From Fibrobacter succinogenes subsp. succinogenes S85 (GTDB taxonomy: Bacteria; Fibrobacterota; Fibrobacteria; Fibrobacterales; Fibrobacteraceae), in NCBI RefSeq assembly GCF_000146505.1, contig NC_017448.1, positions 2,310,001 through 2,342,000 of the forward strand: 32,000 nucleotides of DNA, in the 5' to 3' direction. A program made the translations under genes and the position numbers. The notes beneath the pieces are model-generated. The model was not told the origin of the DNA. It did not search any database and was given only the letters and a program-made list of their open reading frames with translations. Shown here piece by piece: positions 12,204 to 32,000 of the stretch. Each line of letters opens with the position of its first letter. The first letter of the stretch is position 1.

Positions 12204-13082
12204 ATGACTTTACGTTCTATCCTCTTTTGTCGTTTTGCGGTGGTGTTGTCTGCGCTTTTGTCTTTGTCGGCGAGCGCGTTTGCAAAAGAAAAAGTCTTTG
12301 AAGAAAAAATCGATTCGCTGTTTTCAAAGCGGATGGAACTCCCAATGGTGAGTTCTAAGCTGGAACGATTGAATGGTAAGTTTGTTCCGGTCTGTGGCAA
12401 CGTGATAGATGAAGTTGATGAGCACACTCTTGACTTGTTGGCGGATGACGATTTGTTTGCGGCGGAGAGCCTTTACAATATCTTGAATGAGCGGATGCTT
12501 TTGAGGAACAAATCTCTTTTGCAAAAGGCTTCGCCAGAAATCCAGCGCAAGTATAAAAGCCTTTCGAGCCGATTTAACTTCATCAATTTGGAACGGATTA
12601 GAATCCACGTTGATTTTTATTATGACCGCGAAAAGCGTAATTGGGTCCGCCCGGTCAGTGATTCTGTAATCACCATGACGATGATTGTCAAGTCGGGGTA
12701 TTTCCTTTATCAGGACGGTGATTCCGTAATTGATATACGCCGCTATGGCTATTACATTCCGGGCTCGAACGTAAAGCGCATTTTCTTTAGCGATGGCTAT
12801 TCCGAGGTTCTGTGGGATAGCCCGGATATGGTGGCGCTAGATTCAATGAGGGTATTGCCGTATAAGCTTGTCGAGAAAATTTCCATTGAAAATGGCGATG
12901 TGCATAACCGACAGAAAATAAAAAAGCTCCTGAAGAGCGGAGATTTTGCGGCGATACCGCATGTCCTTCAGGAGATGGATGAATATTGCGAAGTGAATTC
13001 GTGTACTGAAGCCGCCGATTACAAACGCTACCTGAATATGCTGGCGCTGCTTTATAAGAGCGGCGTACTCCGGCGTTTTTAA
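12204..13082 (+). CDS. Secreted hypothetical protein
   Basis: Signal peptide ...ALLSLSASAFAKE. No recognisable motif. Its end overlaps the convergent rpe stop by 4 nt. Confidence 0.6.
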   Translation: MTLRSILFCRFAVVLSALLSLSASAFAKEKVFEEKIDSLFSKRMELPMVSSKLERLNGKFVPVCGNVIDEVDEHTLDLLADDDLFAAESLYNILNERMLLRNKSLLQKASPEIQRKYKSLSSRFNFINLERIRIHVDFYYDREKRNWVRPVSDSVITMTMIVKSGYFLYQDGDSVIDIRRYGYYIPGSNVKRIFFSDGYSEVLWDSPDMVALDSMRVLPYKLVEKISIENGDVHNRQKIKKLLKSGDFAAIPHVLQEMDEYCEVNSCTEAADYKRYLNMLALLYKSGVLRRF

Positions 13083-13729
13083 CCGTTCACCTTTGCGACA
13101 AATTCACGGCAGACCGCTTCCGGATCGGGCTTGCCGAAGATGGCGCTACCAACGACGAAGATGTTTGCGCCCGCTTCCTTGCAGGCGAGGATGTTGTCGA
13201 GCTTAACGCCGCCGTCAATCTGGATGTTGAGTTCCGGCTTGAGGGCGCGGAGTTCGCGAATCTTGTCGAGGCAGTAAGGAATGAGGCTCTGACCGCCGAA
13301 ACCCGGGTTCACAGACATAATGAGTACCATATCCACGATGTCGAGCACGTACTTGATGCTTTCGAGCGGAGTGGCCGGATTGATGGCGACTGCGGGCTTG
13401 ACGCCGAGTTCTGCAATCTGGTGCAGCAAGCGGTCAAGATGGTTCGTGGTTTCAGCGTGTACGCTGATGATGCTTGCGCCAGCCTTAGCAAATTCGCCCA
13501 CGTAGTTTTCCGGATTTTCGATCATCAAATGGCAATCGAGCGGAAGCTTGGTTCCCTTCTTGACGCAGGCAGAAATGCCCGGGCCAAAGCTGATGTTTGG
13601 AACAAAGTGTCCATCCATGATGTCCAGGTGAACGAGGCCTGCGCCTCCGTTTTCGATGGCTTTGAGACCATTGCCAAGTTCGAGGAAGTTTGCGTTCAAG
13701 ACGCTGGGAGCGATGATTTGTTTAAGCAT
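13079..13729 (-). CDS. rpe: Ribulose-phosphate 3-epimerase
   Basis: IAPSVLNANF, HLDIMDGHFVPNISFGP, MSVNPGFGGQ and DGGV are classical Rpe motifs over the full 216 aa. Confidence 0.95.
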   Translation of the reverse strand: MLKQIIAPSVLNANFLELGNGLKAIENGGAGLVHLDIMDGHFVPNISFGPGISACVKKGTKLPLDCHLMIENPENYVGEFAKAGASIISVHAETTNHLDRLLHQIAELGVKPAVAINPATPLESIKYVLDIVDMVLIMSVNPGFGGQSLIPYCLDKIRELRALKPELNIQIDGGVKLDNILACKEAGANIFVVGSAIFGKPDPEAVCREFVAKVNG

Positions 13730-14428: not shown

Positions 14429-15688
14429 ATGAAATATTCCATCCCTGATTCAGTGCTTTTGAAAGCGGCCAGTGAATACGGCACCCCGCTTTGGATTTAT
14501 GACCGTGCGACGATTGAACGTGCTGTAAAGGACGTGCAGGTTTTTGACACTGTGCGCTTTGCTCAAAAGGCATGCCCGAACCTCTCTGTGGTTTCGCTCA
14601 TCCGCAAGCTTGGCTGCGTTGTCGACGCCGTCTCCGCTGGTGAAATTGTGCGCGCCCTCAAGGCCGGCTTCAAGGGTGGACAGCAGAAGGGCAAGGTTCC
14701 TGAAATTGTCTATACAGCCGATATCTTCGACCGCGATGCACTCGAACTCGTGAAGAAGTACGATATCGCCGTGAACGTGGGCTCTCCGGACATGATCCAG
14801 CAGCTCGCTGATTTTGGCGTGAAGTCTGAACTCACCATCCGCGTGAATCCGGGCTTTGGCCATGGTCACTCCCGCAAGACGAATACCGGTGGCGATCTTT
14901 CCAAGCACGGCATTTGGCACGAACAGATTAAGGACTGCATCAAGCTCGCCCAGAGCAACGGCATGTGGATTACCGGTTTGCATATGCACATCGGTTCCGG
15001 CACGGATTTTGAACACTTGGCCCAGGTTTGCGATGCCATGGTGGACGCTAGCCGTCACCTCGGTTCTCACCTCCGCACGATTAGCGCTGGTGGTGGCCTC
15101 CCGATTCCGTATCACGAAGAAGAAAAGGGCAACCGCATTGACGTGAAGGCTTACTATGATTTGTGGGACAACGCCCGCAAGCGTATCCAGCAGAGCATTG
15201 GTCATGATGTCCATCTCGAAGTGGAACCGGGCCGTTATCTTGTTGCAGAAAGCGGCTACCTCGTTGCGGAAATCCGCGCTGTGAAGAAGCAGGGAAGTAA
15301 TTTGTTCTACTTGCTCGACGCGGGCTTTACCGATCTCGTTCGCCCGAGCTTCTACGGTAGCTATCATGCTATTTCTGTGGTTGCCCGTGACGGTCGTGAA
15401 CTGAACGAAACTGTTGACGCTGTTGTGGCTGGCCCGCTTTGCGAATCCGGGGACGTGTTCACGCAGGAAGAAGGTGGCTTTGTCGTGACGCGCAAGCTCC
15501 CGAAGGCTCAGGTGGGTGACCTCTTGATTCTCCATGATGCTGGTGCTTACGGTGCCGCCATGAGCAGCAACTACAATAGCCGTCGCTACGCTGCTGAAAC
15601 GATGTACACGAAGGGTGAAATCAAGCTCGTTCGTGAACGCCAGACTTTCGAACAGCTTTTGCAGAACGATCGCATTATCGAACTGTAA
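14429..15688 (+). CDS. lysA: Diaminopimelate decarboxylase
   Basis: YGTPLWIYD, GGGLPIPY, EPGRYLVAESG and CESGD are fold-III PLP decarboxylase / LysA motifs over the full 419 aa. Confidence 0.95.
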   Translation: MKYSIPDSVLLKAASEYGTPLWIYDRATIERAVKDVQVFDTVRFAQKACPNLSVVSLIRKLGCVVDAVSAGEIVRALKAGFKGGQQKGKVPEIVYTADIFDRDALELVKKYDIAVNVGSPDMIQQLADFGVKSELTIRVNPGFGHGHSRKTNTGGDLSKHGIWHEQIKDCIKLAQSNGMWITGLHMHIGSGTDFEHLAQVCDAMVDASRHLGSHLRTISAGGGLPIPYHEEEKGNRIDVKAYYDLWDNARKRIQQSIGHDVHLEVEPGRYLVAESGYLVAEIRAVKKQGSNLFYLLDAGFTDLVRPSFYGSYHAISVVARDGRELNETVDAVVAGPLCESGDVFTQEEGGFVVTRKLPKAQVGDLLILHDAGAYGAAMSSNYNSRRYAAETMYTKGEIKLVRERQTFEQLLQNDRIIEL

Positions 15689-16649: not shown

Positions 16650-16668
16650 ATTTGTTCTCTTTTTTTGG

Positions 16669-16699
16669 TTGACGATATCTCCTTGGATAAGGATATAAT
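16669..16699 (+). promoter_or_regulatory. Putative promoter (T-tract, GGTTGACG, 19 nt, TATAAT)
   Basis: ttgacg at 16669-16674 and tataat at 16694-16699. Three other island intergenic regions have the same layout. Confidence 0.45.
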
Positions 16700-16738
16700 T
16701 ATTGGCGATTAAAGAAACTTTTAAACAAGGAGAACAAA

Positions 16739-16882
16739 ATGAATCAGGTTAAAAAAGTGATTGCTTACGTTGCCGCTACAGCTGAAGCCGCCAAGGTCCT
16801 CGTTGATGTGTATGAAAAATACAGGGCCAACGTTAAGGAAATTAAGGATAATTCCTGTTCCGGTCCGACGGTAGACGCCTAA
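16739..16882 (+). CDS. Mini-protein, 47 aa (MNQVKKVIAYVAATAEAAKVLVDVYEKYRANVKEIKDNSCSGPTVDA)
   Basis: A strong AAGGAGAA RBS lies 6 nt upstream. The helix is predicted to be amphipathic. It shares the MNQ(V/L)K start with the next mini-ORF. It is absent from the ORF track because it is under 60 aa. Confidence 0.45.
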   Translation: MNQVKKVIAYVAATAEAAKVLVDVYEKYRANVKEIKDNSCSGPTVDA

Positions 16883-16919
16883 TCCCCCAAAATTCAACCC
16901 CAAAAAAAGGAAATACAAT

Positions 16920-17018
16920 ATGAACCAGCTTAAAGGAATCATCACCATCGTCTCTGCTGTGGTTACTATCGTGAGTACCATTCAAAAAATGACCACGAAA
17001 AGTGCTCCCCGCGTATAG
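16920..17018 (+). CDS. Mini membrane protein, 32 aa (MNQLKGIITIVSAVVTIVSTIQKMTTKSAPRV)
   Basis: AAAGGAAA RBS. One hydrophobic helix is followed by a basic tail. A terminator follows directly. Confidence 0.45.
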   Translation: MNQLKGIITIVSAVVTIVSTIQKMTTKSAPRV

Positions 17019-17039
17019 AGCAAGTTTAACCTTCAACCT

Positions 17040-17062
17040 GCCCGCTTTTTAGCGGGCCTTTT
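17040..17062 (+). terminator. Rho-independent terminator after the mini-protein pair
   Basis: GCCCGC-ttttta-GCGGGC followed by CTTTTGTGCTTTTT. Confidence 0.7.
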
Positions 17063-17124
17063 GTGCTTTTTATATATTTCAAAAAAATCTCGGCGAAAAA
17101 TCGCTATCTGAAAGGAGAAGTTTT

Positions 17125-25416: not shown

Positions 25417-26388
25417 ATGCCGACGAACGCAATCAACTTCCCCAAAAATTTCCAGAACGCAGATAGTTTCGCTCGTTTCGCCAAGGTCTCGCCCTTGGTG
25501 GTTAACTGGCACGCTCTGGAGCATTGCAACTATAAGTGCTCTTTCTGCTACAGCGACTGGAACAGCCGTGATGAAGCTTGGAACACCCCCGAAAACGTCC
25601 GCAAGGTGATCGAGAATATCGCCCGTTTCCATGCCGATTATTTTGGCGCAGATGCAGCTCCCTGGCGCTTGAGCGTTGTGGGCGGCGAACCCATCCTCTT
25701 CCCGAAAAAGGCGCAGTTCATGGTCAAAACGGCTGTTGCGTGTGGTGCCGAGGTCTCGATAATCACGAATGGCAGTCACCTTGAGAACGCATTGCCCTTT
25801 GCACACCTCCTTTCCCAGGTGGGTATTTCGCTCGATTCCTTTGTTCATGAAACCAACTTGAAGATTGGCCGCCAGTGCAATGGTCACACGCTCTCCTTTG
25901 AAGAGATTTCGGATAAGATTGCTGCACTCCGTGCCGTTAATCCGAACGTCCGCGTGAAGGTGAACACTGTCGTCAACCAGAATAACTTCGGTGAAGTCCT
26001 TGTTGACAAGGTGGCAGCACTCGGTGCAACTAAGTACAAAATTTTGCGCCAGATGCCGTTTGGTGGCAACAAGGGTATTACGGACGATGAATTCCATGTG
26101 TTTATCCGTAACAATTACCGCGAGGACCTTTTCGGTCACGACGATGGTAAGCGTCACATCTTCATCGAGGATAATTCCGTGATGACGCAGAGCTATTTGA
26201 TGATTGCTCCGAACGGTTGCTTGTTCCAGAACGGTGGCGCGGAATACCGTTACAGCCGCCCTCTCATGGAAACCCCGTTTGAAGAGGCTCTGAAAGACAT
26301 CAACTTCTCTGCCGAAAAGTTCTTTAGCCGTTACACATCTACGGCGACGGACGCGATCCTCGCCCGTATGCATGAATGTGCTGCATAA
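25417..26388 (+). CDS. Prokaryotic viperin homologue (pVip, radical-SAM nucleotide dehydratase family)
   Basis: VNWHALEHCNYKCSFCY aligns with viperin VNYHFTRQCNYKCGFCFH. Other pairs (this protein / viperin) are VVGGEPIL / FSGGEPFL, VSIITNGSHL / VSIVSNGSLI, GISLDSF..TNLKIGRQ / AISCDSF..VNVLIGRG, VKVNTVVNQNN / FKINSVINRFN and QSYLMIAP / DSYLILDE. The start is set at the ATG at 25417. Confidence 0.9.
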   Translation: MPTNAINFPKNFQNADSFARFAKVSPLVVNWHALEHCNYKCSFCYSDWNSRDEAWNTPENVRKVIENIARFHADYFGADAAPWRLSVVGGEPILFPKKAQFMVKTAVACGAEVSIITNGSHLENALPFAHLLSQVGISLDSFVHETNLKIGRQCNGHTLSFEEISDKIAALRAVNPNVRVKVNTVVNQNNFGEVLVDKVAALGATKYKILRQMPFGGNKGITDDEFHVFIRNNYREDLFGHDDGKRHIFIEDNSVMTQSYLMIAPNGCLFQNGGAEYRYSRPLMETPFEEALKDINFSAEKFFSRYTSTATDAILARMHECAA

Positions 26389-26689
26389 ATTCACTCATCT
26401 TTCACTTCAAACAAAGGAGAATAACTTTATGTTCATTCTGATTTCAATTATCCTCGCAAAAATCCTCTAAGGCGCAAGCCACGCCCGGCTCGGAGGCGTA
26501 AAACCTGAGCCGTGTGGAGCCTACGGTATAAGGCCAACTTTTATCTCACATAGGTTCCCCGAGCCTTTAAAATCGGGGGTTCATAGACCTTAGGCGACGA
26601 GGTGTCGCTGAGGTCACAGTGGTCACAACGCTCGAGGCTGGGATGTTCCCAGTGTCGGTAATGCCGCATGGCAAAAGGAGATAAAAGTT

Positions 26690-27427
26690 ATGACGACGAT
26701 TACAACAAATTCCAAAATCGAATCCCTCATTGAATCCGCACGCAAGCATGGCGATAGCGCCTCAATCAATGCTCTTTATGAGCTTTACGAGGAAAAGTTC
26801 AAGTCTGCTGCGATGTATCATTTCAAACGTATTCCTTTCAACTTCGATGTGGCGCGACTCCCGAACAGTCGCTATAAACAGGACTTGATCATCAGTGCTG
26901 CTTACGATGCCTTTGTGAAGACGTACAAGACTTACGACGGCTCGCGTGGTGCCAGTTTTGTGACTTTGCTTAACAGGAACATTGAATGGCTCTTCAAGGA
27001 TCTGCAAAAAGAAAACGCTAAGGAAAGCAAGCGTTGGAAGAACAGTACTGACGCTATATACAGCAAGCGCAAGCAGGACTATACTGACGACCTTGAAAAT
27101 GTTTCCTGCAGTTCTCGCGATGCCTACGATACCTGCGACACCGACATGGTCAATGAAGTTCTGAGCACGATGCAGGGCGCAGCCCGCAAGAATGCCGAGG
27201 CTCTGTACCGCATCTTTTCTGAAGAAGGTGCTGATAAGCAGTGCTCCGCAGCAGACCGTCTCGGGATTTCGCGCCAGGCAATCAACAAAAGTTTCAAGTC
27301 GTACAGGGAATATGGCCCCAAGGCGATTCGCGACAGAGTCCTCGAAACGTTGAGGGAAAAAGCGTCCCAACGTGTAGTCGGGACAAAGACCACGAATTGC
27401 AATGTTTTTAAAGACGAATCTAAGTAG
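26690..27427 (+). CDS. Divergent sigma-70-family (ECF-like) protein
   Basis: AAAGGAGA RBS. The region-2-like segment is ALYELYEEKFKSAAMYHF...ISAAYDAFVKTYKTYDGSRGASFVTLLNRNIEWLFKDLQKE. The region-4 HTH is SAADRLGISRQAINKSF. Confidence 0.65.
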   Translation: MTTITTNSKIESLIESARKHGDSASINALYELYEEKFKSAAMYHFKRIPFNFDVARLPNSRYKQDLIISAAYDAFVKTYKTYDGSRGASFVTLLNRNIEWLFKDLQKENAKESKRWKNSTDAIYSKRKQDYTDDLENVSCSSRDAYDTCDTDMVNEVLSTMQGAARKNAEALYRIFSEEGADKQCSAADRLGISRQAINKSFKSYREYGPKAIRDRVLETLREKASQRVVGTKTTNCNVFKDESK

Positions 27428-27455
27428 GTCGTAACAAACAAAAAAGGAGTCTATT

Positions 27456-29450
27456 ATGACACAGTTCAAAAATCTTGCCGCATTCACGCTTTTCGCAGTT
27501 TCGTTGTTAGCCTCGGTTGTCAGCGCCGCCGGATCCAATTTGTTTGAATTCAAATCGGCGAATGTGCCGCCTGGTTCCATGGCCATTGAATACTATGGCG
27601 CCCTTTCGGGAATTTATCAGGGTAAAGACAACCTTTTCTTTAAGGGTGCCGACACGGTGCATGTGTATTTCGTTGGCGAACTTCGCGACAGCAAAATGGT
27701 CAATGGCGCTGCCGAAATCAAGGACGAGGAACGTCATGTCTCTTACACCGGGAACATTGTGAACGGCGTTATGCAAGACGACCATGCCGAAGCAACAAGA
27801 GTAAAGTCCAAAAAGTCCATGGAGTTCTTTAGCGGTAGTTTTAACGGCTACGAGTTCGACTCCTGCTTTTACGCCAATAGCGGAACTTCGGAACGGTATA
27901 TCGGAAAAATGTCCAACGGCAAATTCAATGACGTCAGTGCCTCTTACGTTGGCCCGCTGTACAGGATTTACAATGGGGATTTTTCCTCCTATGCCATCCA
28001 GAGCGACTTCTTTGATTTCTCGCCTGTGAATTTCAGTCGCAAGGACATGGCGACATTCCAGGGTGCCATGCGTGACGGCCGCATCGCGGACTTCGGGAGC
28101 CTTTCTGTTGTTCACAAAGGCGACACTCTGCACTATACAGGTGATTTTGAAAATGCCCAAGTAAATGGTGTCGGTACTGTAAAGGTGGGCGATTTGTATT
28201 CGTATGTTGGGCATTTCGCAAAGGGGCTGATTGCGGGGCTTGGCGAAATCACGTCGGATCATTTTTCTCGCCTGTTCACCGAAAGCGAACATGTACCTGC
28301 AGGGACTATTTCCATCAAGGGAATCTGGGCAGGGATTTCTGGACTCGGCACGTATTTCCGCGTGACGGACGAGGACGGTGCAAATGTCAAGCTCAAAATG
28401 AACGACGGAACCATCGAAGAGTTGAGCAGTCTGCAGCGTTTCAGAAACTGGGTTAGCGAAACAGGCGTTTCCGAGTGGATCGTGTCGCACAGAAGCGAAA
28501 TCGACAAAGTCATTACCGGGGCGGCCTTTGTAGATGCAGGTGTTTGCGCAAGCCTCCTGATCTTCCCGGCTTCGGCTCCGGTGACAGGCCCAATCTGTGG
28601 TGGAGGTTTCTTTACCATAGTGGGTACAGAGGCTGTGCTTCAGTTGATCTTGACGTTTGATGCCATCAACGAACAATGCTATACCGAAGATTGCGTCGAA
28701 GACTTGTGGAAAAACTTTGGCAAGGAACAGCTCTTCAATGCCGGATTGATTCTGTTGCCTCCGGTAATTGCACGAGCAGGCAAGGCGGTTGCGCCTACTC
28801 TCAAGTCGTATTTGGCTACGGTCAAGGAGTTTGGCTATACAAGGGCTATTGCGATGAGCAAGAACGCGCAGGCCGTGAAAGAGCTTGAAATGCTCCCGGA
28901 AATCAGCCTCCCTCGTGTCAGGGAAATCGATGTCCTCAACGACAGACTCGCCTTTAAGCAGGCCGTTGTCGACTACACCGGCAAGAGTTTTAGGGATGGC
29001 TTTGTGGAATTCTTTGTCCGTCTGAAAAAGTCCGGACAGGAAAATCTGATCAAGGACATTTGGAAAAGCCACAAGGATTTCATCAAGAACAGTGGAATCC
29101 GTGCCGGTGGTGAACACGAATGGCTCGAGGCGGATCGTTTCGTTGATTACCTGCTGAATCCGAAGTGGGGGAGTGATGGCGCTTACCTTGCCTACATACT
29201 CCCTAGAATGACGCAAAGGACAACGGGCGTAAAATTTGCCAATGGCGGCGCGCACACGATTGTTGACGAAACCGGGCGCAAAATTCCTGGGCCGAACAGC
29301 GGAAGTTTCCATAAGACTCTTGGTGAAACTATCGGGAGCTGCAATACCGCAAGCTGCGTGTTCGGCAAGATGAAAAGTTTTGCCTCGCGCGAGTTGACCT
29401 CGTCTTCGTACAAGGAATACCTCGCCATGGAACGTGCCGTTTTAGAGTAA
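27456..29450 (+). CDS. Membrane protein: signal peptide, MORN-like repeats, approx. 3 TM segments, then an unknown approx. 220-aa C-terminal domain
   Basis: AAAGGAG RBS. Signal peptide ...LLASVVSAAGS. Repeated YxGxxxxG units include YTGNIVNGV, YIGKMSNGKF, YTGDFENAQVNGVG and YVGHFAKGLIAGLG. Hydrophobic stretches cover residues approx. 352-402 and 426-440. The C-terminal domain carries GGEHEW, NGGAHT and SFHK. Confidence 0.8.
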   Translation: MTQFKNLAAFTLFAVSLLASVVSAAGSNLFEFKSANVPPGSMAIEYYGALSGIYQGKDNLFFKGADTVHVYFVGELRDSKMVNGAAEIKDEERHVSYTGNIVNGVMQDDHAEATRVKSKKSMEFFSGSFNGYEFDSCFYANSGTSERYIGKMSNGKFNDVSASYVGPLYRIYNGDFSSYAIQSDFFDFSPVNFSRKDMATFQGAMRDGRIADFGSLSVVHKGDTLHYTGDFENAQVNGVGTVKVGDLYSYVGHFAKGLIAGLGEITSDHFSRLFTESEHVPAGTISIKGIWAGISGLGTYFRVTDEDGANVKLKMNDGTIEELSSLQRFRNWVSETGVSEWIVSHRSEIDKVITGAAFVDAGVCASLLIFPASAPVTGPICGGGFFTIVGTEAVLQLILTFDAINEQCYTEDCVEDLWKNFGKEQLFNAGLILLPPVIARAGKAVAPTLKSYLATVKEFGYTRAIAMSKNAQAVKELEMLPEISLPRVREIDVLNDRLAFKQAVVDYTGKSFRDGFVEFFVRLKKSGQENLIKDIWKSHKDFIKNSGIRAGGEHEWLEADRFVDYLLNPKWGSDGAYLAYILPRMTQRTTGVKFANGGAHTIVDETGRKIPGPNSGSFHKTLGETIGSCNTASCVFGKMKSFASRELTSSSYKEYLAMERAVLE

Positions 29451-29477
29451 CACTCAATTTTTAAAAGGAGATAAAAA

Positions 29478-30164
29478 ATGCAGAATTTCAAGAATTACCG
29501 TAAATACGAAATTAGCAGCAGGCTTGGTGACAACCTTCCGCTTGACGTGATGATTGTGGGCGCTACAGGTGCTGGCAAGTCGTCGCTCGTCAATGCCCTT
29601 TGTGGCGGAGCGGTTGCATGCGTGGGCGAGGGCGTGGACCCCGAAACCATGGATATCACTCGCTATGCGCTCAACAACCATTTTTGCGTGTGGGATACGC
29701 CTGGGCTTGGCGACAGTGCCGTTGCGGATGCTAGCCATAAACGCAATATTGTCAAACATCTGCTGAAGACATACGAAAATGGCGGAGCGCGTTACCGTTT
29801 CATGGACCTTGTCCTTGTGGTGCTCGAGGGCGGCATTCGTGACATGGGCTCGTGCTACTCGCTTTTGAACGAAGTCGTTGTCCCGAACATTGACCGCGAA
29901 CGCATCGTTGTGGCTATCAACCAGGCCGATATCGCCATGAAGGGGACGCATTGGGATTCTTGGCGCAACAAGCCCGATGCGGTGCTTGACTCGTTCCTGC
30001 GCGACAAGGCCGAATCGGTCAGGCGGCGCGTTTACGAAGCGACAGGTGTTTCTATCCGTACGCCGGTGTGCTTCTCGGCTGGAACTGGCTACAACATGGA
30101 TGCCGTGGTCGATGCCTTGATTGAGCAGATCCCGCGCTACCGCCCAGCCGTGCGCCATGCATGA
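29478..30164 (+). CDS. P-loop GTPase, YfjP/YeeP (MMR_HSR1)-like, paralogue 1
   Basis: G1 is GATGAGKSS, G3 is WDTPGLGD, and G4 is the variant NQADI. AAAGGAGA RBS. Confidence 0.85.
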   Translation: MQNFKNYRKYEISSRLGDNLPLDVMIVGATGAGKSSLVNALCGGAVACVGEGVDPETMDITRYALNNHFCVWDTPGLGDSAVADASHKRNIVKHLLKTYENGGARYRFMDLVLVVLEGGIRDMGSCYSLLNEVVVPNIDRERIVVAINQADIAMKGTHWDSWRNKPDAVLDSFLRDKAESVRRRVYEATGVSIRTPVCFSAGTGYNMDAVVDALIEQIPRYRPAVRHA

Positions 30165-30179
30165 AGTTGAAAAAAATGG

Positions 30180-30210
30180 TTGACACTTTCACCGCAAAAG
30201 CAGATGTAAT
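30180..30210 (+). promoter_or_regulatory. Putative promoter (A-tract, GGTTGACA, 19 nt, TGTAAT)
   Basis: ttgaca at 30180-30185 and tgtaat at 30205-30210, with gaaaaaaat upstream. Confidence 0.45.
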
Positions 30211-30249
30211 AGACAAAAGAATTCAACAAGGTTCATAAGGAGAACTAAA

Positions 30250-31266
30250 ATGACTTACAATACGAACAACATGGAATTTGTTACCAAGATGGAACACGAT
30301 ATCGAAGCCTCTGGCCTCCCGGATGCAGTCAAGCACAAGCTTCTTGCCAACTTGCTGCTCCTCAAGAGCAAGAAGGTGAACCTCCTCATCACGGGTGCCA
30401 CGGGCTGTGGCAAGAGTTCAACCATCAACGCGCTCTTTAATGCCGACGTGTCGAAGGTGGGTGTAGGTGTGGACCCCGAAACCATGGAAATCGAGAAGTA
30501 CGAACTCGGCAACCTCGTTTTGTGGGATAGCCCGGGGCTTGGCGACGGCAAGGAAGCCGACAACCGTCACGCGAAAAACCTCACCGCGAAACTCCTCGAA
30601 CGCGACGCCGATGGCAATCCGCTGATTGACCTCGTGCTGGTGATTCTCGACGGCAGCTCCCGCGACATGGGTACTTCCTTCGAGCTTATCAGCAACGTGA
30701 TTGTCCCGAACCTCGGCGAAGACAAGTCCCGCATTCTGGTAGCGATCAACCAGGCCGACATGGCCATGAAGGGTCGCGGCTGGGACCGCGTGAACAACAG
30801 GCCCGAACCCGCTTTGGAGCAGTTCTTGCAGGAGAAGGTGGAATCCGTTAGGCGCCGCATCAAGGAAAGTACGGGTGTTGATGTGGAACCCATCTACTAT
30901 AGCGCAGGCTACAAGGATGGTGATGCTCCGCAGAGACCCTACAACTTGACCAAGCTCCTGTACCAGATTGTCCACTACACGCCCAAGGAAAAGCGCACGA
31001 TTTACGCGAACAACATCAACCGCGACCGTGAAATGTGGAAGGACGACGACGAACTCAAGGACTACCGCAACAGCATTCTGGACGATATTGTTGAATCGAT
31101 TTCGGACTGTGCTGAGACCGGGGCCGAGATTGGCGAAAGTCTGGGTGGCCTTTTTGGTAGCGCAGGCCGTACTGTGGGCCGTGTTGCAGGCCGCGTTGTC
31201 GGTGGCGCTTTCGGGGCGGTCAAGAGTATCGCGAAGTCCTTCTTCGGCGGACTCTTTGGCTGGTAA
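30250..31266 (+). CDS. P-loop GTPase, paralogue 2, with a C-terminal glycine-zipper / amphipathic tail
   Basis: GATGCGKSS, WDSPGLGD and NQADMAMKG. The core is clearly paralogous to 29478-30164. The tail is ...GAEIGESLGGLFGSAGRTVGRVAGRVVGGAFGAVKSIAKSFFGGLFGW. Confidence 0.85.
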   Translation: MTYNTNNMEFVTKMEHDIEASGLPDAVKHKLLANLLLLKSKKVNLLITGATGCGKSSTINALFNADVSKVGVGVDPETMEIEKYELGNLVLWDSPGLGDGKEADNRHAKNLTAKLLERDADGNPLIDLVLVILDGSSRDMGTSFELISNVIVPNLGEDKSRILVAINQADMAMKGRGWDRVNNRPEPALEQFLQEKVESVRRRIKESTGVDVEPIYYSAGYKDGDAPQRPYNLTKLLYQIVHYTPKEKRTIYANNINRDREMWKDDDELKDYRNSILDDIVESISDCAETGAEIGESLGGLFGSAGRTVGRVAGRVVGGAFGAVKSIAKSFFGGLFGW

Positions 31267-31319
31267 CGCCCCCACCTGCTCCTCATTAGCCACTTTGTGT
31301 GTCCCTTGTGTTGTGGCAG

Positions 31320-31565
31320 GGCGGTCCCGGTGAAAACCGGGGCCGTTTTTTATTTGGCAATTGAGGGCGCGGAGCCTAAAATTTCCCATTTTCACTCAAA
31401 AAAGTGTAAATTTAAGGTGTCCGGTCTGCATGGCCGGGTCGCAACTTGACATTTGATACAGACAACAAAAACGCCAATTTCGGGTGCGGCTGTTGCCAAC
31501 GGCCGCCTGGAACCCTTTATTTATGCAGGTTCCAGAGGGGTACTCCCTGAAAAGCATTCCTCTCG
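31320..31565. repeat. Non-coding repeat unit, copy 1
   Basis: Bases 31320-31466 match 31674-31820 at a 354-bp offset, with 5 mismatches in 147 nt counted by eye. Bases 31467-31565 recur at 31849-31869 and 31921-32000. Confidence 0.9.
31323..31351 (+). terminator. Rho-independent terminator (also the start of repeat copy 1)
   Basis: GGTCCCGGT-gaaa-ACCGGGGCC followed by GTTTTTT. Confidence 0.8.
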
Positions 31566-31593
31566 CAAGAGAGATCTTTTTTCAAAAAACAGG

Positions 31594-31624
31594 TTGACAC
31601 TTTTGTTGTCTTTGTCGATATATG
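31594..31624 (+). promoter_or_regulatory. Putative promoter (A-tract, GGTTGACA, 19 nt, TATATG) driving a short terminated transcript
   Basis: ttgaca at 31594-31599 and tatatg at 31619-31624. The 12 nt ggttgacacttt are identical to the promoter at 30178. Confidence 0.4.
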
Positions 31625-31673
31625 TTATGTCAGACGCTCGTTACGTTCGGCATAACATTTTACTCCTGAGGTT

Positions 31674-32000
31674 GGCGGTCCCGGTAAAAATCGGGGCCGT
31701 TTTTTATTTGGCAATTGAGAGCGCGGAGCCTAAAAATTCCCATTTTCACTCAAAAAAGTGTAAATTTAAGGTGTCCGGTCTGCATGGCCGGGTCGCAACT
31801 TGACATTTGTTACAGACAACATTCGTGTTACCATGCCGAAATTGAGCTAAAAACGCCAATTTTGGGTGCTTTTTAGGGTTTTGTAAAGAAAAATTAAAAT
31901 TCTATTAAGTGCTTTTGCGTGCAGTTGTTACCAACGGCCGCCTGGAACCCTTTATTTATGCAGGTTCCAGAGGGGTACTCCCTGAAAAGCATTACTCTCG
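31674..32000. repeat. Non-coding repeat unit, copy 2, with two insertions; truncated by the window end
   Basis: Collinear with copy 1. Extra segments sit at 31821-31848 and 31870-31920. Confidence 0.9.
31677..31705 (+). terminator. Rho-independent terminator (start of repeat copy 2)
   Basis: GGTCCCGG-taaaaa-TCGGGGCC followed by GTTTTTT. Confidence 0.75.

What the first reader, a model, noticed from the sequence alone, without database searches (positions are those of the whole stretch)
26690..31266. Sigma-factor + MORN-like membrane protein + two paralogous GTPases: candidate undescribed four-gene module
The four genes are co-directional, each with an AAGGAG-type RBS, separated by gaps of 28, 27 and 85 nt. 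(1) A divergent sigma-70/ECF-like protein with a region-2-like core and a region-4 HTH (LGISRQAINK). (2) A 664-aa protein with a signal peptide, MORN-like YxGxxxxG repeats predicted to be extracytoplasmic, about 3 TM segments and an unknown cytoplasmic domain. (3, 4) Two paralogous GTPases of the YfjP/YeeP type, with an NQAD G4 box. The sigma factor and membrane protein are reminiscent of an ECF sigma / anti-sigma pair, but with inverted topology. YfjP/YeeP-type GTPases are typical of E. coli cryptic-prophage islands and are functionally unknown. I know of no described system with this combination. One model: an envelope sensor (MORN) releases or activates the sigma factor, which turns on island promoters, and the GTPases act as switch or effector.
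Basis: partly seen in the sequence, partly recalled or inferred. Interest (0 to 1): 0.75.

Follow-up and report, generated by a model that had tools for sequence, protein, structure and literature searches.

The report
Paired GTPase cassette with sigma regulator
The four genes are real but are not one conserved module: the core is a widespread, undescribed pair of small GTPases sitting in a Fibrobacter anti-phage island, which in this genus has gained a sigma-factor-like regulator with an unusual RNA leader, while the MORN membrane protein is a recent insertion between them.

Summary
In detail: there are four co-directional ORFs with gaps of 28, 27 and 85 nt and AAGGAG ribosome-binding sites. 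They encode a sigma-70-fold protein, a MORN-repeat membrane protein and two paralogous GTPases (45% identity, NQAD G4 box). The host is Fibrobacter, and the locus lies in a defence island next to a prokaryotic viperin (pVip) and a TerY-P triad.

The four-gene-module reading fails. The GTPase pair (a long form with a glycine-zipper tail plus a short form) is an autonomous cassette found across several phyla with unrelated flanks, and natural fusions of the two types exist. The sigma-like gene accompanies the pair only in Fibrobacter, always as pVip, leader, sigma, slot, GTPases (8 lineages). One Fibrobacter-like locus has the pair alone.

The MORN protein fills the slot in one near-identical lineage only. 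Six lineages have an empty slot and one carries a nuclease gene plus a 202-aa gene. Its 52–57% homologues stand alone elsewhere.

New finding: the sigma gene has a conserved leader with a 13-codon mini-ORF and a covarying structure that sequesters its Shine-Dalgarno sequence.

The most likely function is a regulated anti-phage GTPase cassette, but this function is inferred and not shown.

The parts
25390..26388 (+). Prokaryotic viperin (pVip). It lies immediately upstream of the sigma-like gene in all 8 Fibrobacter lineages examined. It is context, and possibly a functional partner.
   Evidence: NCBIfam viperin_w_prok scores 274 bits against a cut-off of 180. PADLOC pVip E=7e-79. Synteny is shown.
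26429..26470 (+). 13-codon leader mini-ORF (MFILISIILAKIL*) with its own AGGAG ribosome-binding site.
   Evidence: It is present in 7 of 8 lineages, with synonymous differences and a conserved peptide M[FL][IL]L[IA][SA]I[IV]L[AG]KIL.
26471..26689 (+). Structured leader RNA of the sigma-like gene. The anti-SD sequence 26538-26547 (CTTTTATCTC) pairs with the SD region 26678-26687 (GAGATAAAAG).
   Evidence: RNAalifold predicts 46 pairs. 94.6% of cells are paired against 35-49% when partners are slid. 19 pairs have compensatory changes against 8.1±2.0 in shuffles, 0 of 500 shuffles reaching the observed value. The window MFE is -107 kcal/mol, z=-5.1, and contains the closing helix. There is no Rfam match. 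The leader is found only upstream of sigma-like genes, in 16 of 16 loci.
26690..27427 (+). Divergent sigma-70-family-like protein: a sigma-2-like N-terminal domain, a variable linker and a C-terminal HTH (LGISRQAINK).
   Evidence: The family has only 17 clusters, all from Fibrobacter-type metagenomes.
27456..29450 (+). MP664, a lineage-specific insertion in the slot between the sigma-like gene and G1. Its parts are: signal-peptide-like N-terminus (27456-27527), MORN beta-hairpin repeats (27582-28421), hydrophobic segments (28506-28667) and a conserved uncharacterised C-terminal domain (28803-29447).
   Evidence: It has only 10 homologues among 5.8 billion proteins, and their contexts differ. 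The MORN fold is shown and the hydropathy. The C-terminal domain family is described.
29478..30164 (+). G1, the short GTPase of the pair (P-loop lysine K34).
   Evidence: MMR_HSR1 E=1.7e-11. Motif conservation is shown and pair conservation.
30178..30212 (+). Promoter-like element GGTTGACA...GATGTAATA in the G1-G2 gap.
   Evidence: It is conserved at the orthologous position in the other Fibrobacter loci. It has not been shown to be active.
30250..31266 (+). G2, the long GTPase (P-loop lysine K55) with a C-terminal glycine-zipper tail (31117-31263).
   Evidence: MMR_HSR1 and IIGP hits lie above the Pfam cut-offs. phrog_16468 matches over the full length, E=8e-79. The family has more than 5000 homologue clusters. 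The tail is conserved across phyla.
31318..31349 (+). Intrinsic terminator that ends the unit. It is also the start of repeat element D1.
   Evidence: 14-bp stem followed by a T-run. D1 is defined.

Best explanation
The locus is a composite inside a hypervariable Fibrobacter defence island. It is not a four-gene machine.

(1) The core is an autonomous, horizontally mobile two-gene cassette. It consists of a long TRAFAC GTPase (IIGP/AIG1-like G domain) ending in a glycine-zipper tail, plus a short paralogue. I infer that the two proteins form a GTP-dependent heterodimer. I further infer that, when triggered by infection, the heterodimer uses the long subunit's glycine-zipper tail to damage the membrane, giving an abortive-infection-type defence.

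(2) In Fibrobacter the cassette has acquired a dedicated sigma-70-family-like transcription factor, always placed downstream of a viperin gene. Translation of that factor is kept off by a leader RNA that base-pairs with its Shine-Dalgarno sequence. I infer that the block is released through translation or stalling on a 13-codon upstream mini-ORF. Once made, the factor would raise transcription of the downstream genes, probably from the GGTTGACA...TGATATAA-type promoters of the island.

(3) The space between the sigma-like gene and G1 is a variable slot. It is empty in six lineages and holds an Endonuclease_NS_2 gene plus a 202-aa gene in one. In the window's lineage it holds MP664, a MORN-TM protein with an uncharacterised His/Glu-motif C-terminal domain that otherwise lives as a stand-alone gene. 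MP664 is therefore a passenger or an added effector. It is not an anti-sigma sensor.

Shown here: the anatomy, the co-occurrence pattern, the protein folds and the covariation of the leader. Inferred: the defence role, heterodimer formation, membrane action, the target promoters of the sigma-like factor and the trigger of the leader.
For: Pair autonomy: a long-type gene and a short-type gene are adjacent in all 29 genome loci except the two cut by a contig end (L019) or disrupted (L036). These loci come from Clostridia, Selenomonadaceae, Campylobacter, Burkholderiales, Methylococcales, Pseudoalteromonas and others, and no flanking gene cluster is shared between them. The pair stands alone in the Fibrobacter-like locus L056, next to type III CRISPR-Cas genes.

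Physical partnership: five protein clusters are single-chain fusions of the G1 type and the G2 type. Both paralogues keep intact G1, G3 and G4 motifs, and nearly all complete long-type genes carry the Gly-zipper tail (L034 has an Ala/Val-rich tail instead).

Defence context: pVip and a TerY-P triad are adjacent in the window. Neighbours elsewhere include WYL/WCX regulators, CapH-like HTH proteins, MADS components, PD-T4-6 kinases, Cas3 and integrases.

Sigma fold. Sigma-pair co-occurrence: every locus that carries the sigma-like gene has the GTPases downstream wherever the contig allows.

Slot variability and MP664 as an insertion. All MP664-containing loci are 96-98% identical in MP664. In the window the insertion replaces the G1 promoter seen in empty-slot loci.

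Leader.
Against: There is no experimental or database evidence that the GTPase pair defends against phage. It has no PADLOC model beyond P-loop-only matches to LeoA/LeoBC. No formal enrichment statistic was computed.

The sigma-like protein fails the curated sigma HMM cut-off (17.5 bits against 42.9). Its C-terminal half is modelled with low confidence.

The island promoter motif looks like a canonical sigma-70 consensus, so the housekeeping sigma may use it. The window lineage also lacks that promoter upstream of its own leader.

pVip is as tightly linked to the sigma-like gene as the GTPases are, so the regulator may serve pVip instead.

In the window MP664 is tightly packed into the operon (gaps of 28 and 27 nt). 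This is compatible with functional recruitment.
Confidence: 0.6

Rival explanations
1. All four genes form one signalling module in which the MORN membrane protein senses the envelope and releases or activates the sigma factor, which then turns on the GTPases and island promoters.
For: In the window lineage the four genes are packed as one transcription unit with gaps of 28 and 27 nt and no internal promoter before G1. This arrangement is kept in L007, L047, L048 and L049.
Against: All MP664-containing loci belong to one near-identical lineage (MP664 96-98% identical). Seven other sigma-GTPase lineages lack MP664. MP664 homologues at 52-57% identity lie elsewhere without a sigma-like gene or GTPases. 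No anti-sigma domain is detected. The same slot holds a nuclease gene plus a 202-aa gene in L044.
Confidence: 0.07
2. The sigma-like gene and its leader belong to the viperin rather than to the GTPases. On this reading pVip, the sigma-like factor and the GTPases form a composite Fibrobacter system. For example, the regulator could respond to viperin products or to transcription stress, with the GTPases as a second layer of defence.
For: pVip is immediately upstream of the leader in all 8 lineages. This includes L040, where the public gene call missed it. In the window there is no promoter between pVip and the leader, so they may be co-transcribed. The pair exists without the sigma-like gene elsewhere.
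Against: Most lineages have a promoter-like element between pVip and the leader. The slot cargo and the GTPases, not pVip, lie downstream of the sigma-like gene.
Confidence: 0.15
3. The GTPase pair is not an immune system. It is instead a selfish or housekeeping function of mobile elements, such as addiction, element maintenance or membrane remodelling, like the uncharacterised YfjP/YeeP/YkfA GTPases of E. coli CP4-type islands.
For: It is distantly related to YfjP. It is found in an integrative mobilisable element with relaxase, integrase and resolvase genes and next to an integrase in L027. It belongs to a PHROG family of unknown function.
Against: It repeatedly neighbours known defence genes and WYL/CapH-type regulators. 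It was not found in 50,697 phage genomes or in the IMG/VR pattern scan.
Confidence: 0.12
4. The sigma-like protein is not a regulator. It is a decoy or sensor that mimics a host sigma factor in order to detect phage anti-sigma or RNA-polymerase-hijacking proteins, and it then activates the GTPases.
For: It diverges much faster than its neighbours. Between lineages it is 31-69% identical, against 83-93% for G2, 72-84% for G1 and 64-81% for pVip. Its expression is tightly gated by the leader.
Against: There is no direct evidence. Fast divergence is concentrated in the linker and may only reflect relaxed constraint. The pair works without it in other taxa.
Confidence: 0.06

Closest known systems
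Two-gene dynamin-like anti-phage system (Eleos / LeoA-LeoBC; Millman et al. 2022, bioRxiv 10.1101/2022.05.11.491447)
   Same: Both consist of two adjacent paralogous GTPases in defence islands. In the dynamin system the P-loops of both proteins are needed for defence. The PADLOC LeoA and LeoBC models are the best defence-library hits for G1 and G2. A membrane-directed action is plausible for both.
   Different: Only the P-loop region matches: 54-77 residues of models that are 559-601 positions long. G1 and G2 are 228 and 338 aa, whereas the PADLOC LeoA and LeoBC models are 559 and 601 positions long. They show no match to the rest of those models, and they carry a glycine-zipper tail instead.
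E. coli cryptic-prophage GTPases YfjP / YeeP / YkfA
   Same: Both are small MMR_HSR1-type GTPases of unknown function on mobile islands. Pairwise similarity is detectable: 28-31% identity, E about 1e-11 to 1e-13.
   Different: YfjP is a single gene rather than a pair. Its G4 box is SQSD, against NQAD here, and it has no glycine-zipper tail. Its neighbours differ (rnlAB and yfjQ in CP4-57). No nucleotide-level match to the window was found in 5,426 E. coli genomes.
Sigma-70 family factors, groups 3/4 (SigB, sigma-S, sigma-28/WhiG, ECF)
   Same: The overall two-domain helical fold is shared (Foldseek top hits). There is a region-2-like motif, F-E-T-W-L-x-x-K-I, and a C-terminal HTH.
   Different: The protein scores below all curated sigma HMM thresholds. 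The family has only 17 clusters, confined to Fibrobacter. It is encoded behind a mini-ORF and an SD-sequestering leader, and there is no adjacent conserved anti-sigma gene.
Leader-peptide translational attenuation (ermC/cat-type) and SD-sequestering riboregulators
   Same: Both have a short upstream ORF followed by RNA structure that occludes the SD of the regulated gene.
   Different: The ligand or stalling signal is unknown. The peptide (MFILISIILAKIL) and the multi-hairpin domain of about 200 nt have no Rfam counterpart. The regulated gene is a sigma-like factor in a defence island, not a resistance gene.
WYL/BrxR/CapW- or CapH-type regulators placed next to defence systems
   Same: A dedicated transcription regulator sits immediately beside the cassette. 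The same GTPase pair has WYL/WCX or XRE-HTH neighbours in other taxa.
   Different: Here the regulator has a sigma-70 fold, is co-directional with the cassette, and is itself under RNA-level control.

Membership tests
Sigma-70 family (sigma-like protein) | Passes a curated family HMM (Pfam Sigma70_r2/r4 or TIGR02937) | tested here: not met
   TIGR02937 scores 17.5 bits against a cut-off of 42.9, E=2.4e-3. No Sigma70_r2 or Sigma70_r4 hit at E<=0.1.
Sigma-70 family (sigma-like protein) | Sigma-2 and sigma-4 helical domain architecture | tested here: met
   In the AF2 model residues 10-110 have pLDDT of about 81-92. Foldseek top hits are SigB (E=4.3e-4), sigma-S, sigma-32, WhiG, SigI and sigma-28, and phage sigma factors. 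The C-terminal HTH is modelled at only pLDDT 50-60.
Sigma-70 family (sigma-like protein) | Binds core RNA polymerase and directs promoter-specific initiation | not testable with these tools
   This needs biochemistry or ChIP.
ECF sigma / anti-sigma pair | Conserved adjacency of the sigma gene with a membrane anti-sigma that carries an anti-sigma domain | tested here: not met
   MP664 is absent from 7 of 8 sigma-like lineages. It has no Pfam domain hit at all.
MORN-repeat proteins (MP664 N-terminal region) | Tandem beta-hairpin MORN repeats | tested here: met
   Foldseek gives MORN1 6t4r E=1.5e-7, plus junctophilin and radial-spoke MORN proteins. Pfam MORN does not hit MP664 itself. It does hit relatives that share the C-terminal domain, with E as low as 1e-45.
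Polymorphic toxin / immunity pair (MP664) | Variable C-terminal toxin domain followed by a cognate immunity gene | tested here: not met
   The C-terminal domain is the most conserved part of the protein. The downstream genes differ in every context: G1, a transposase, a 65-aa ORF, a 236-aa ORF and Fic.
HNH/EndoVII nuclease (MP664 C-terminal domain) | Conserved H-N-H beta-beta-alpha metal finger | tested here: not met
   H600 and H619 are invariant, but N614 is not conserved across the wider family. There is no Pfam, NCBIfam or PDB match. The region is modelled at low pLDDT.
YfjP/YeeP/YkfA GTPases | Close sequence relationship and CP4-type island context | tested here: inconclusive
   28-31% identity over the G domain, E about 1e-11 to 1e-13. 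The context and the single-gene arrangement differ.
Dynamin-like defence GTPases (LeoA/LeoBC, Eleos) | Match to the LeoA/LeoBC family model over most of its length, beyond the G domain | tested here: not met
   The matches cover only 54-77 residues around the P-loop. The NCBIfam LeoA model scores 18-23 bits against a cut-off of 325.
TRAFAC-class P-loop GTPases (G1, G2) | G1 GxxxxGK[ST], G3 DxxG and G4 [NT]KxD-like motifs | tested here: met
   MMR_HSR1 hits lie above the cut-off for both proteins, and IIGP lies above the cut-off for G2. The motifs are conserved in both paralogue types across phyla, with an NQAD variant of G4.
Prokaryotic viperin (upstream gene 25390-26388) | Curated equivalog HMM | tested here: met
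   NF038283 viperin_w_prok scores 274 bits against a cut-off of 180. PADLOC pVip E=7e-79.

The most novel reading that the evidence does not exclude
The two-GTPase cassette (an IIGP/AIG1-like long subunit with a glycine-zipper tail plus a short paralogue) has thousands of homologue clusters in at least five phyla. On the most novel reading, it is a new abortive-infection anti-phage system. In Fibrobacter it would be wired to a viperin and controlled by a private sigma-70-family factor. Translation of that factor would be gated by a previously undescribed mini-ORF plus SD-sequestering leader RNA that senses translational stress. The slot between the sigma-like gene and the GTPases would accept interchangeable effectors: the MORN-TM protein with a new His/Glu-motif domain, or a nuclease with its immunity gene. 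The island's E. coli-like TTGACA/TATAAT promoters may be read by this private sigma factor, in a host whose housekeeping promoters look Bacteroidetes-like.
Probability: 0.2. Interest if true: 0.8.

Novelty: new variant of a known kind. Interest (0 to 1): 0.5.

Why it matters
If the paired GTPases are an immune system, they would add a very widespread GTPase-based defence that no catalogue yet includes. Its G domain resembles the interferon-inducible IRG and GIMAP GTPases of animals, and in Fibrobacter it sits next to a viperin, another immune gene shared with animals.

The sigma-like regulator and its leader would be a rare example of a defence cassette controlled by a dedicated sigma factor under translational RNA control. 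They also give a concrete, testable cis-regulatory RNA.

For annotation, the result warns against reading tight operon packing as evidence for a module. The MORN gene here is a recent insertion into a variable slot.

Tried and rejected
- Nucleotide searches of the region against E. coli genomes and plasmids found nothing. The locus is not enterobacterial.
- A tblastn search of G2 against 50,697 phage records and an IMG/VR pattern scan found nothing.
- PADLOC, Pfam, NCBIfam and PHROGs gave no family for MP664, and only sub-threshold hits for the sigma-like protein.
- I tested whether the 246-aa and 236-aa genes near MP664 homologues (L004, L005) were diverged sigma-like genes. They are not.
- I considered an HNH nuclease for the MP664 C-terminal domain because of an H-x13-N-x4-H spacing in the Fibrobacter sequences. 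I rejected it because the Asn is not conserved in the wider family and no profile or PDB match exists.
- I tested whether the radical-SAM gene next to the Clostridium carboxidivorans GTPase triple is a viperin. phmmer finds no similarity to the window pVip.
- An Rfam scan of 25000-32000 found only a sub-threshold hit on the terminator.
- Literature searches found no description. The terms covered paired GTPases in defence, YfjP/YeeP, viperin with Fibrobacter, glycine zipper with GTPase, MORN with polymorphic toxin, and immunity-related GTPases in prokaryotes.
- The exact pattern GGTTGAC-N17-21-TANAAT occurs only once in the window, at 16667.

Full report
**Observation**

The gaps are 28, 27 and 85 nt, and each gene has an AAGGAG-type ribosome-binding site. 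A strong terminator follows at 31318-31349.

G1 and G2 are paralogues, 45% identical with E=3e-60. Both hit MMR_HSR1 above the Pfam threshold, and G2 also hits IIGP.

Directly upstream lies a prokaryotic viperin at 25390-26388 (NCBIfam viperin_w_prok 274 bits against a cut-off of 180; PADLOC pVip 7e-79). Before that lies a kinase/VWA/PP2C (TerY-P-like) set.

The first 16 kb of the window encode GH9 and GH18 glycoside hydrolases, a chorismate-binding enzyme and a PLP-dependent decarboxylase. Homologues are named 'uncultured Fibrobacter', and related contigs carry Fib_succ_major domains. The host is therefore Fibrobacter, not an enterobacterium (no E. coli or plasmid match). The four genes sit in a defence island.

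**Is it a four-gene module?**

I tested co-conservation gene by gene.

- MP664, the 664-aa membrane protein, has only 10 homologues among 5.8 billion proteins.
- One homologue, at 97% identity, sits in the same arrangement (L007).
- The others are 52-57% identical and lie in at least four different contexts. They sit next to AAA+ genes and a transposase, next to an NYN gene and a TerY-P set, next to AbiE, or next to Fic and PDDEXK genes. None has a sigma-like gene or GTPases nearby.

By contrast, G2 belongs to a very large family of more than 5,000 clusters. In 29 loci from one-genome-per-species contigs, a long G2-type gene is adjacent to a short G1-type gene. The exceptions are L019, where the contig ends, and L036, where the pair is disrupted; some loci add a third copy. 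The hosts include Clostridia, Selenomonadaceae, Campylobacter, Burkholderiales, Methylococcales and Pseudoalteromonas. All-against-all clustering of the flanking ORFs shows that only the GTPases are shared between loci. The pair is an autonomous cassette.

Five protein clusters are natural single-chain fusions of a G1-type and a G2-type domain. This is Rosetta-stone evidence that the two proteins act together. Both types keep GxxGxGKS, DxPGLGD and NQAD motifs across phyla. Nearly all complete long-type genes end in a glycine-zipper tail.

**The sigma-like gene**

Its family is tiny (17 clusters) and confined to Fibrobacter-type metagenomes. Every locus recovered shows the same order: pVip, a leader of about 300 nt, the sigma-like gene, a slot, then the GTPase pair. 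The loci fall into eight lineages: the window group, L011, L012, L040, L042, L044, L050 and L052.

The slot content varies:

- It is empty in six lineages. One of them, L012, has the two GTPase genes in swapped order.
- It holds an Endonuclease_NS_2 gene plus a 202-aa gene in L044, L045 and L053.
- It holds MP664 only in the window group (window, L007, L047-L049), whose MP664 copies are 96-98% identical.

In empty-slot loci a promoter-like element lies between the sigma-like gene and G1. In the window it is replaced by the MP664 insertion.

One Fibrobacter-like locus (L056, G2 84% identical) has G1-G2 alone, with no sigma-like gene, leader or pVip. It sits between PEPCK and type III CRISPR-Cas genes.

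Three conclusions follow. MP664 is a lineage-specific insertion. The sigma-like gene is a Fibrobacter-specific addition. The GTPase pair is the mobile core.

**What the proteins are**

*Sigma-like protein.* Sequence evidence is weak. TIGR02937 gives E=2.4e-3, below its cut-off. A family profile hits WhiG region 2 at E=0.03 and HTH regulators at the C-terminus. The AlphaFold model is confident for residues 10-110. Its Foldseek hits are almost exclusively sigma factors, both in the PDB (SigB, sigma-S, sigma-32, WhiG, SigI, sigma-28) and among viral models. I accept a sigma-70-family fold; function is untested. The protein diverges faster than its neighbours: 31-69% identity between lineages, against 83-93% for G2.

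*MP664.*

- Residues 43-322 fold as MORN repeats (Foldseek MORN1, E=1.5e-7).
- Hydropathy gives a signal-like N-terminus and two clear hydrophobic segments. The third is weak, so the topology of the C-terminal domain is unresolved.
- The C-terminal domain (about 450-664) is the most conserved part.
- A full-database profile search finds this domain at the C-terminus of roughly sixty representatives with different architectures. These include MORN-rich proteins of 900-1100 aa, a Gly-zipper protein and short proteins.
- The invariant residues are T508, G509, E518, F519, F520, R522, H554, E555, W556, L557, K570, W571, G575, Q587, G597, H600 and H619.
- It matches nothing in Pfam, NCBIfam or the PDB.
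- An HNH reading was considered and rejected.

**Context of the pair outside Fibrobacter**

A pooled scan of 150 neighbouring proteins gives WYL/WCX regulators, CapH-like and XRE HTH proteins, MADS components, PD-T4-6 kinases, Cas3 and integrases. In individual loci a WCX or WYL regulator, or an XRE HTH protein, lies next to or close to the pair. This suggests defence-island residence, and a local regulator beside the cassette. In Fibrobacter the sigma-like protein would fill that role. I did not compute a formal enrichment.

The closest described system is the two-gene dynamin-like defence, but only the P-loop region matches. E. coli YfjP is a distant relative: 28-31% identity, a single gene, in a different context.

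**A new feature: the leader**

Aligning the regions upstream of the sigma-like genes revealed a conserved leader, even where the proteins are only 31-50% identical. It has two parts.

- A 13-codon mini-ORF with its own ribosome-binding site lies at window 26429-26470 and encodes MFILISIILAKIL. It is present in 7 of 8 lineages, with synonymous changes.
- About 200 nt of structured RNA follows.

RNAalifold predicts 46 pairs in seven helices. The evidence for the structure is as follows:

- 94.6% of cells are paired, against 35-49% when the partners are slid.
- 19 pairs show compensatory changes, against 8.1±2.0 in shuffles; no shuffle of 500 reaches the observed value.
- The closing helix pairs CUUCUAUCUC (window 26538-26547) with the Shine-Dalgarno region of the sigma-like gene (26678-26687). 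The window carries one compensatory C-G to U-A change in it.
- The window leader folds at -107 kcal/mol (z=-5.1), and this fold contains the closing helix.
- Rfam has no match.
- An nhmmer profile finds the leader only upstream of sigma-like genes, in 16 of 16 loci.

I read this as translational gating of the sigma-like gene, of the leader-peptide/SD-sequestration kind. The signal is unknown.

**Promoters**

A GGTTGACA...TGATATAA motif is real and conserved at orthologous positions. It lies upstream of the leader in five lineages and in the G1-G2 gap in seven (window 30178). It also lies in front of other island genes (window 16667, 31592, and a variant at 21520).

Its density is 0.22 per kb in loci that carry the sigma-like gene and 0.03 per kb in loci that carry MP664 homologues but no sigma-like gene. 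Two housekeeping genes in the same window instead have a Bacteroidetes-like TAnnTTTG just upstream of the start codon and no SD.

However, the motif is also the canonical sigma-70 consensus, the numbers are small, and the window lineage lacks the motif before its own leader. I leave the question open.

**Most likely mechanism**

Steps marked as inferred have not been shown.

1. The leader keeps the sigma-like factor untranslated. The structure is shown; its function is inferred.
2. A signal acting through the mini-ORF opens the SD (inferred).
3. The factor raises transcription of the slot cargo and the GTPases (inferred).
4. G1 and G2 act as a GTP-dependent heterodimer. Fusions and motif conservation are shown; the interaction is inferred.
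5. G2's glycine-zipper tail attacks the membrane to abort infection (inferred).
6. MP664 is a passenger or an extra effector. The insertion is shown; its role is unknown.

The rival readings are a pVip-centred composite system, a non-immune mobile-element function, a sigma decoy or sensor, and the original four-gene model. They are listed with their tests.

**Verdict**

The proposed module dissolves into three parts: a widespread undescribed GTPase pair, a genus-specific sigma-like regulator with a novel leader, and an inserted gene. Novelty is rated as a new variant of a known kind (GTPase-based, regulator-flanked defence-island cassettes). Interest is moderate (0.5), with a more novel reading at about 20% probability.

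Noticed in passing
window 26429-26689 (also L011 6200-6434, L040 7742-8006, L044 7743-8006, L012 6900-7162, L050 6731-7006, L052 6744-7015): A conserved leader lies upstream of the sigma-like gene. It has a 13-codon hydrophobic mini-ORF and a covarying multi-hairpin RNA whose closing helix sequesters the sigma gene's Shine-Dalgarno sequence. There is no Rfam family for it, and it is found only upstream of sigma-like genes.
   Followed up: yes
window 21571-26388: A TerY-P-like set (205-aa gene, kinase 22139-23383, VWA 23435-24121, PP2C about 24126-25124) is followed by a prokaryotic viperin at 25390-26388. Both recur, in varying order, around the sigma-GTPase unit in the other Fibrobacter loci. 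GH-E nuclease plus ankyrin pairs and NACHT/NB-ARC genes also occur there.
   Followed up: partly
window 31320-31467 and 31674-31821 (D1); 31478-31565 and 31913-32000 (D2): Two repeated intergenic elements (148 nt at 97% identity, 88 nt at 93%) begin at the terminator after G2. They are multi-copy downstream of G2 in L047, L011, L049, L050 and L052. They may mark cassette boundaries in the island.
   Followed up: partly
window 31592-31705: Between the repeats there is a promoter-like GGTTGACA...GATATAT element. It is followed by a unit of about 70 nt with a 5' hairpin, a single-stranded ACUCCU (anti-SD-like) stretch and a terminator. Similar units occur in L011 (16338) and L040 (10963). This may be a small RNA.
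   Followed up: no
window 13079-13729 (-) and 14429-15688 (+) versus 16650-31266: Two housekeeping genes have a Bacteroidetes-like TAnnTTTG motif 12-15 nt before the start codon and no Shine-Dalgarno sequence. Most of the island genes from 17125 onward that were checked, including all four genes of the finding, have an AAGGAG-type or similar SD, and several intergenic regions there carry TTGACA/TATAAT-like promoters. This hints at two expression regimes in one genome.
   Followed up: partly
window 16733-21412: The island starts with two small ORFs (about 47 and 32 aa, each with an SD) behind a GGTTGAC-N19-TATAAT promoter. Two large paralogous proteins follow (668 and 748 aa, 17125-19131 and 19166-21412). 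They have no Pfam hit and lie in the lowest-GC part of the window (0.35-0.39).
   Followed up: no
L044 8785-10495 (= L045, L053): In one lineage the slot between the sigma-like gene and G1 holds an Endonuclease_NS_2 protein (345 aa) and a 202-aa gene, with their own promoter-like element. This may be a toxin-immunity pair, or a swapped effector.
   Followed up: partly
P0024, P0027, P0028, P0032, P0033; L042 47-2578: Natural single-chain fusions of a G1-type and a G2-type GTPase exist. L042 also has an 843-aa protein whose C-terminal part is 78% identical to G2 residues 1-281, fused to an N-terminal AAA_16/22-like region.
   Followed up: partly
P0053, P0072 and similar 440-455-aa G2 homologues (Lachnospiraceae): Many Firmicutes G2-type proteins carry an extra Cys-rich domain of about 110 aa after the glycine-zipper tail (CYITTAICEEFGK...). 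It is absent from the Fibrobacter proteins.
   Followed up: no
window 25348-26394 (-), 27507-29312 (-), 29454-30158 (-); L040 6655-7776 (-): Long antisense ORFs overlap the real genes. In the public gene calls for L040 the antisense ORF was called instead of pVip, which hides the viperin in that record.
   Followed up: yes
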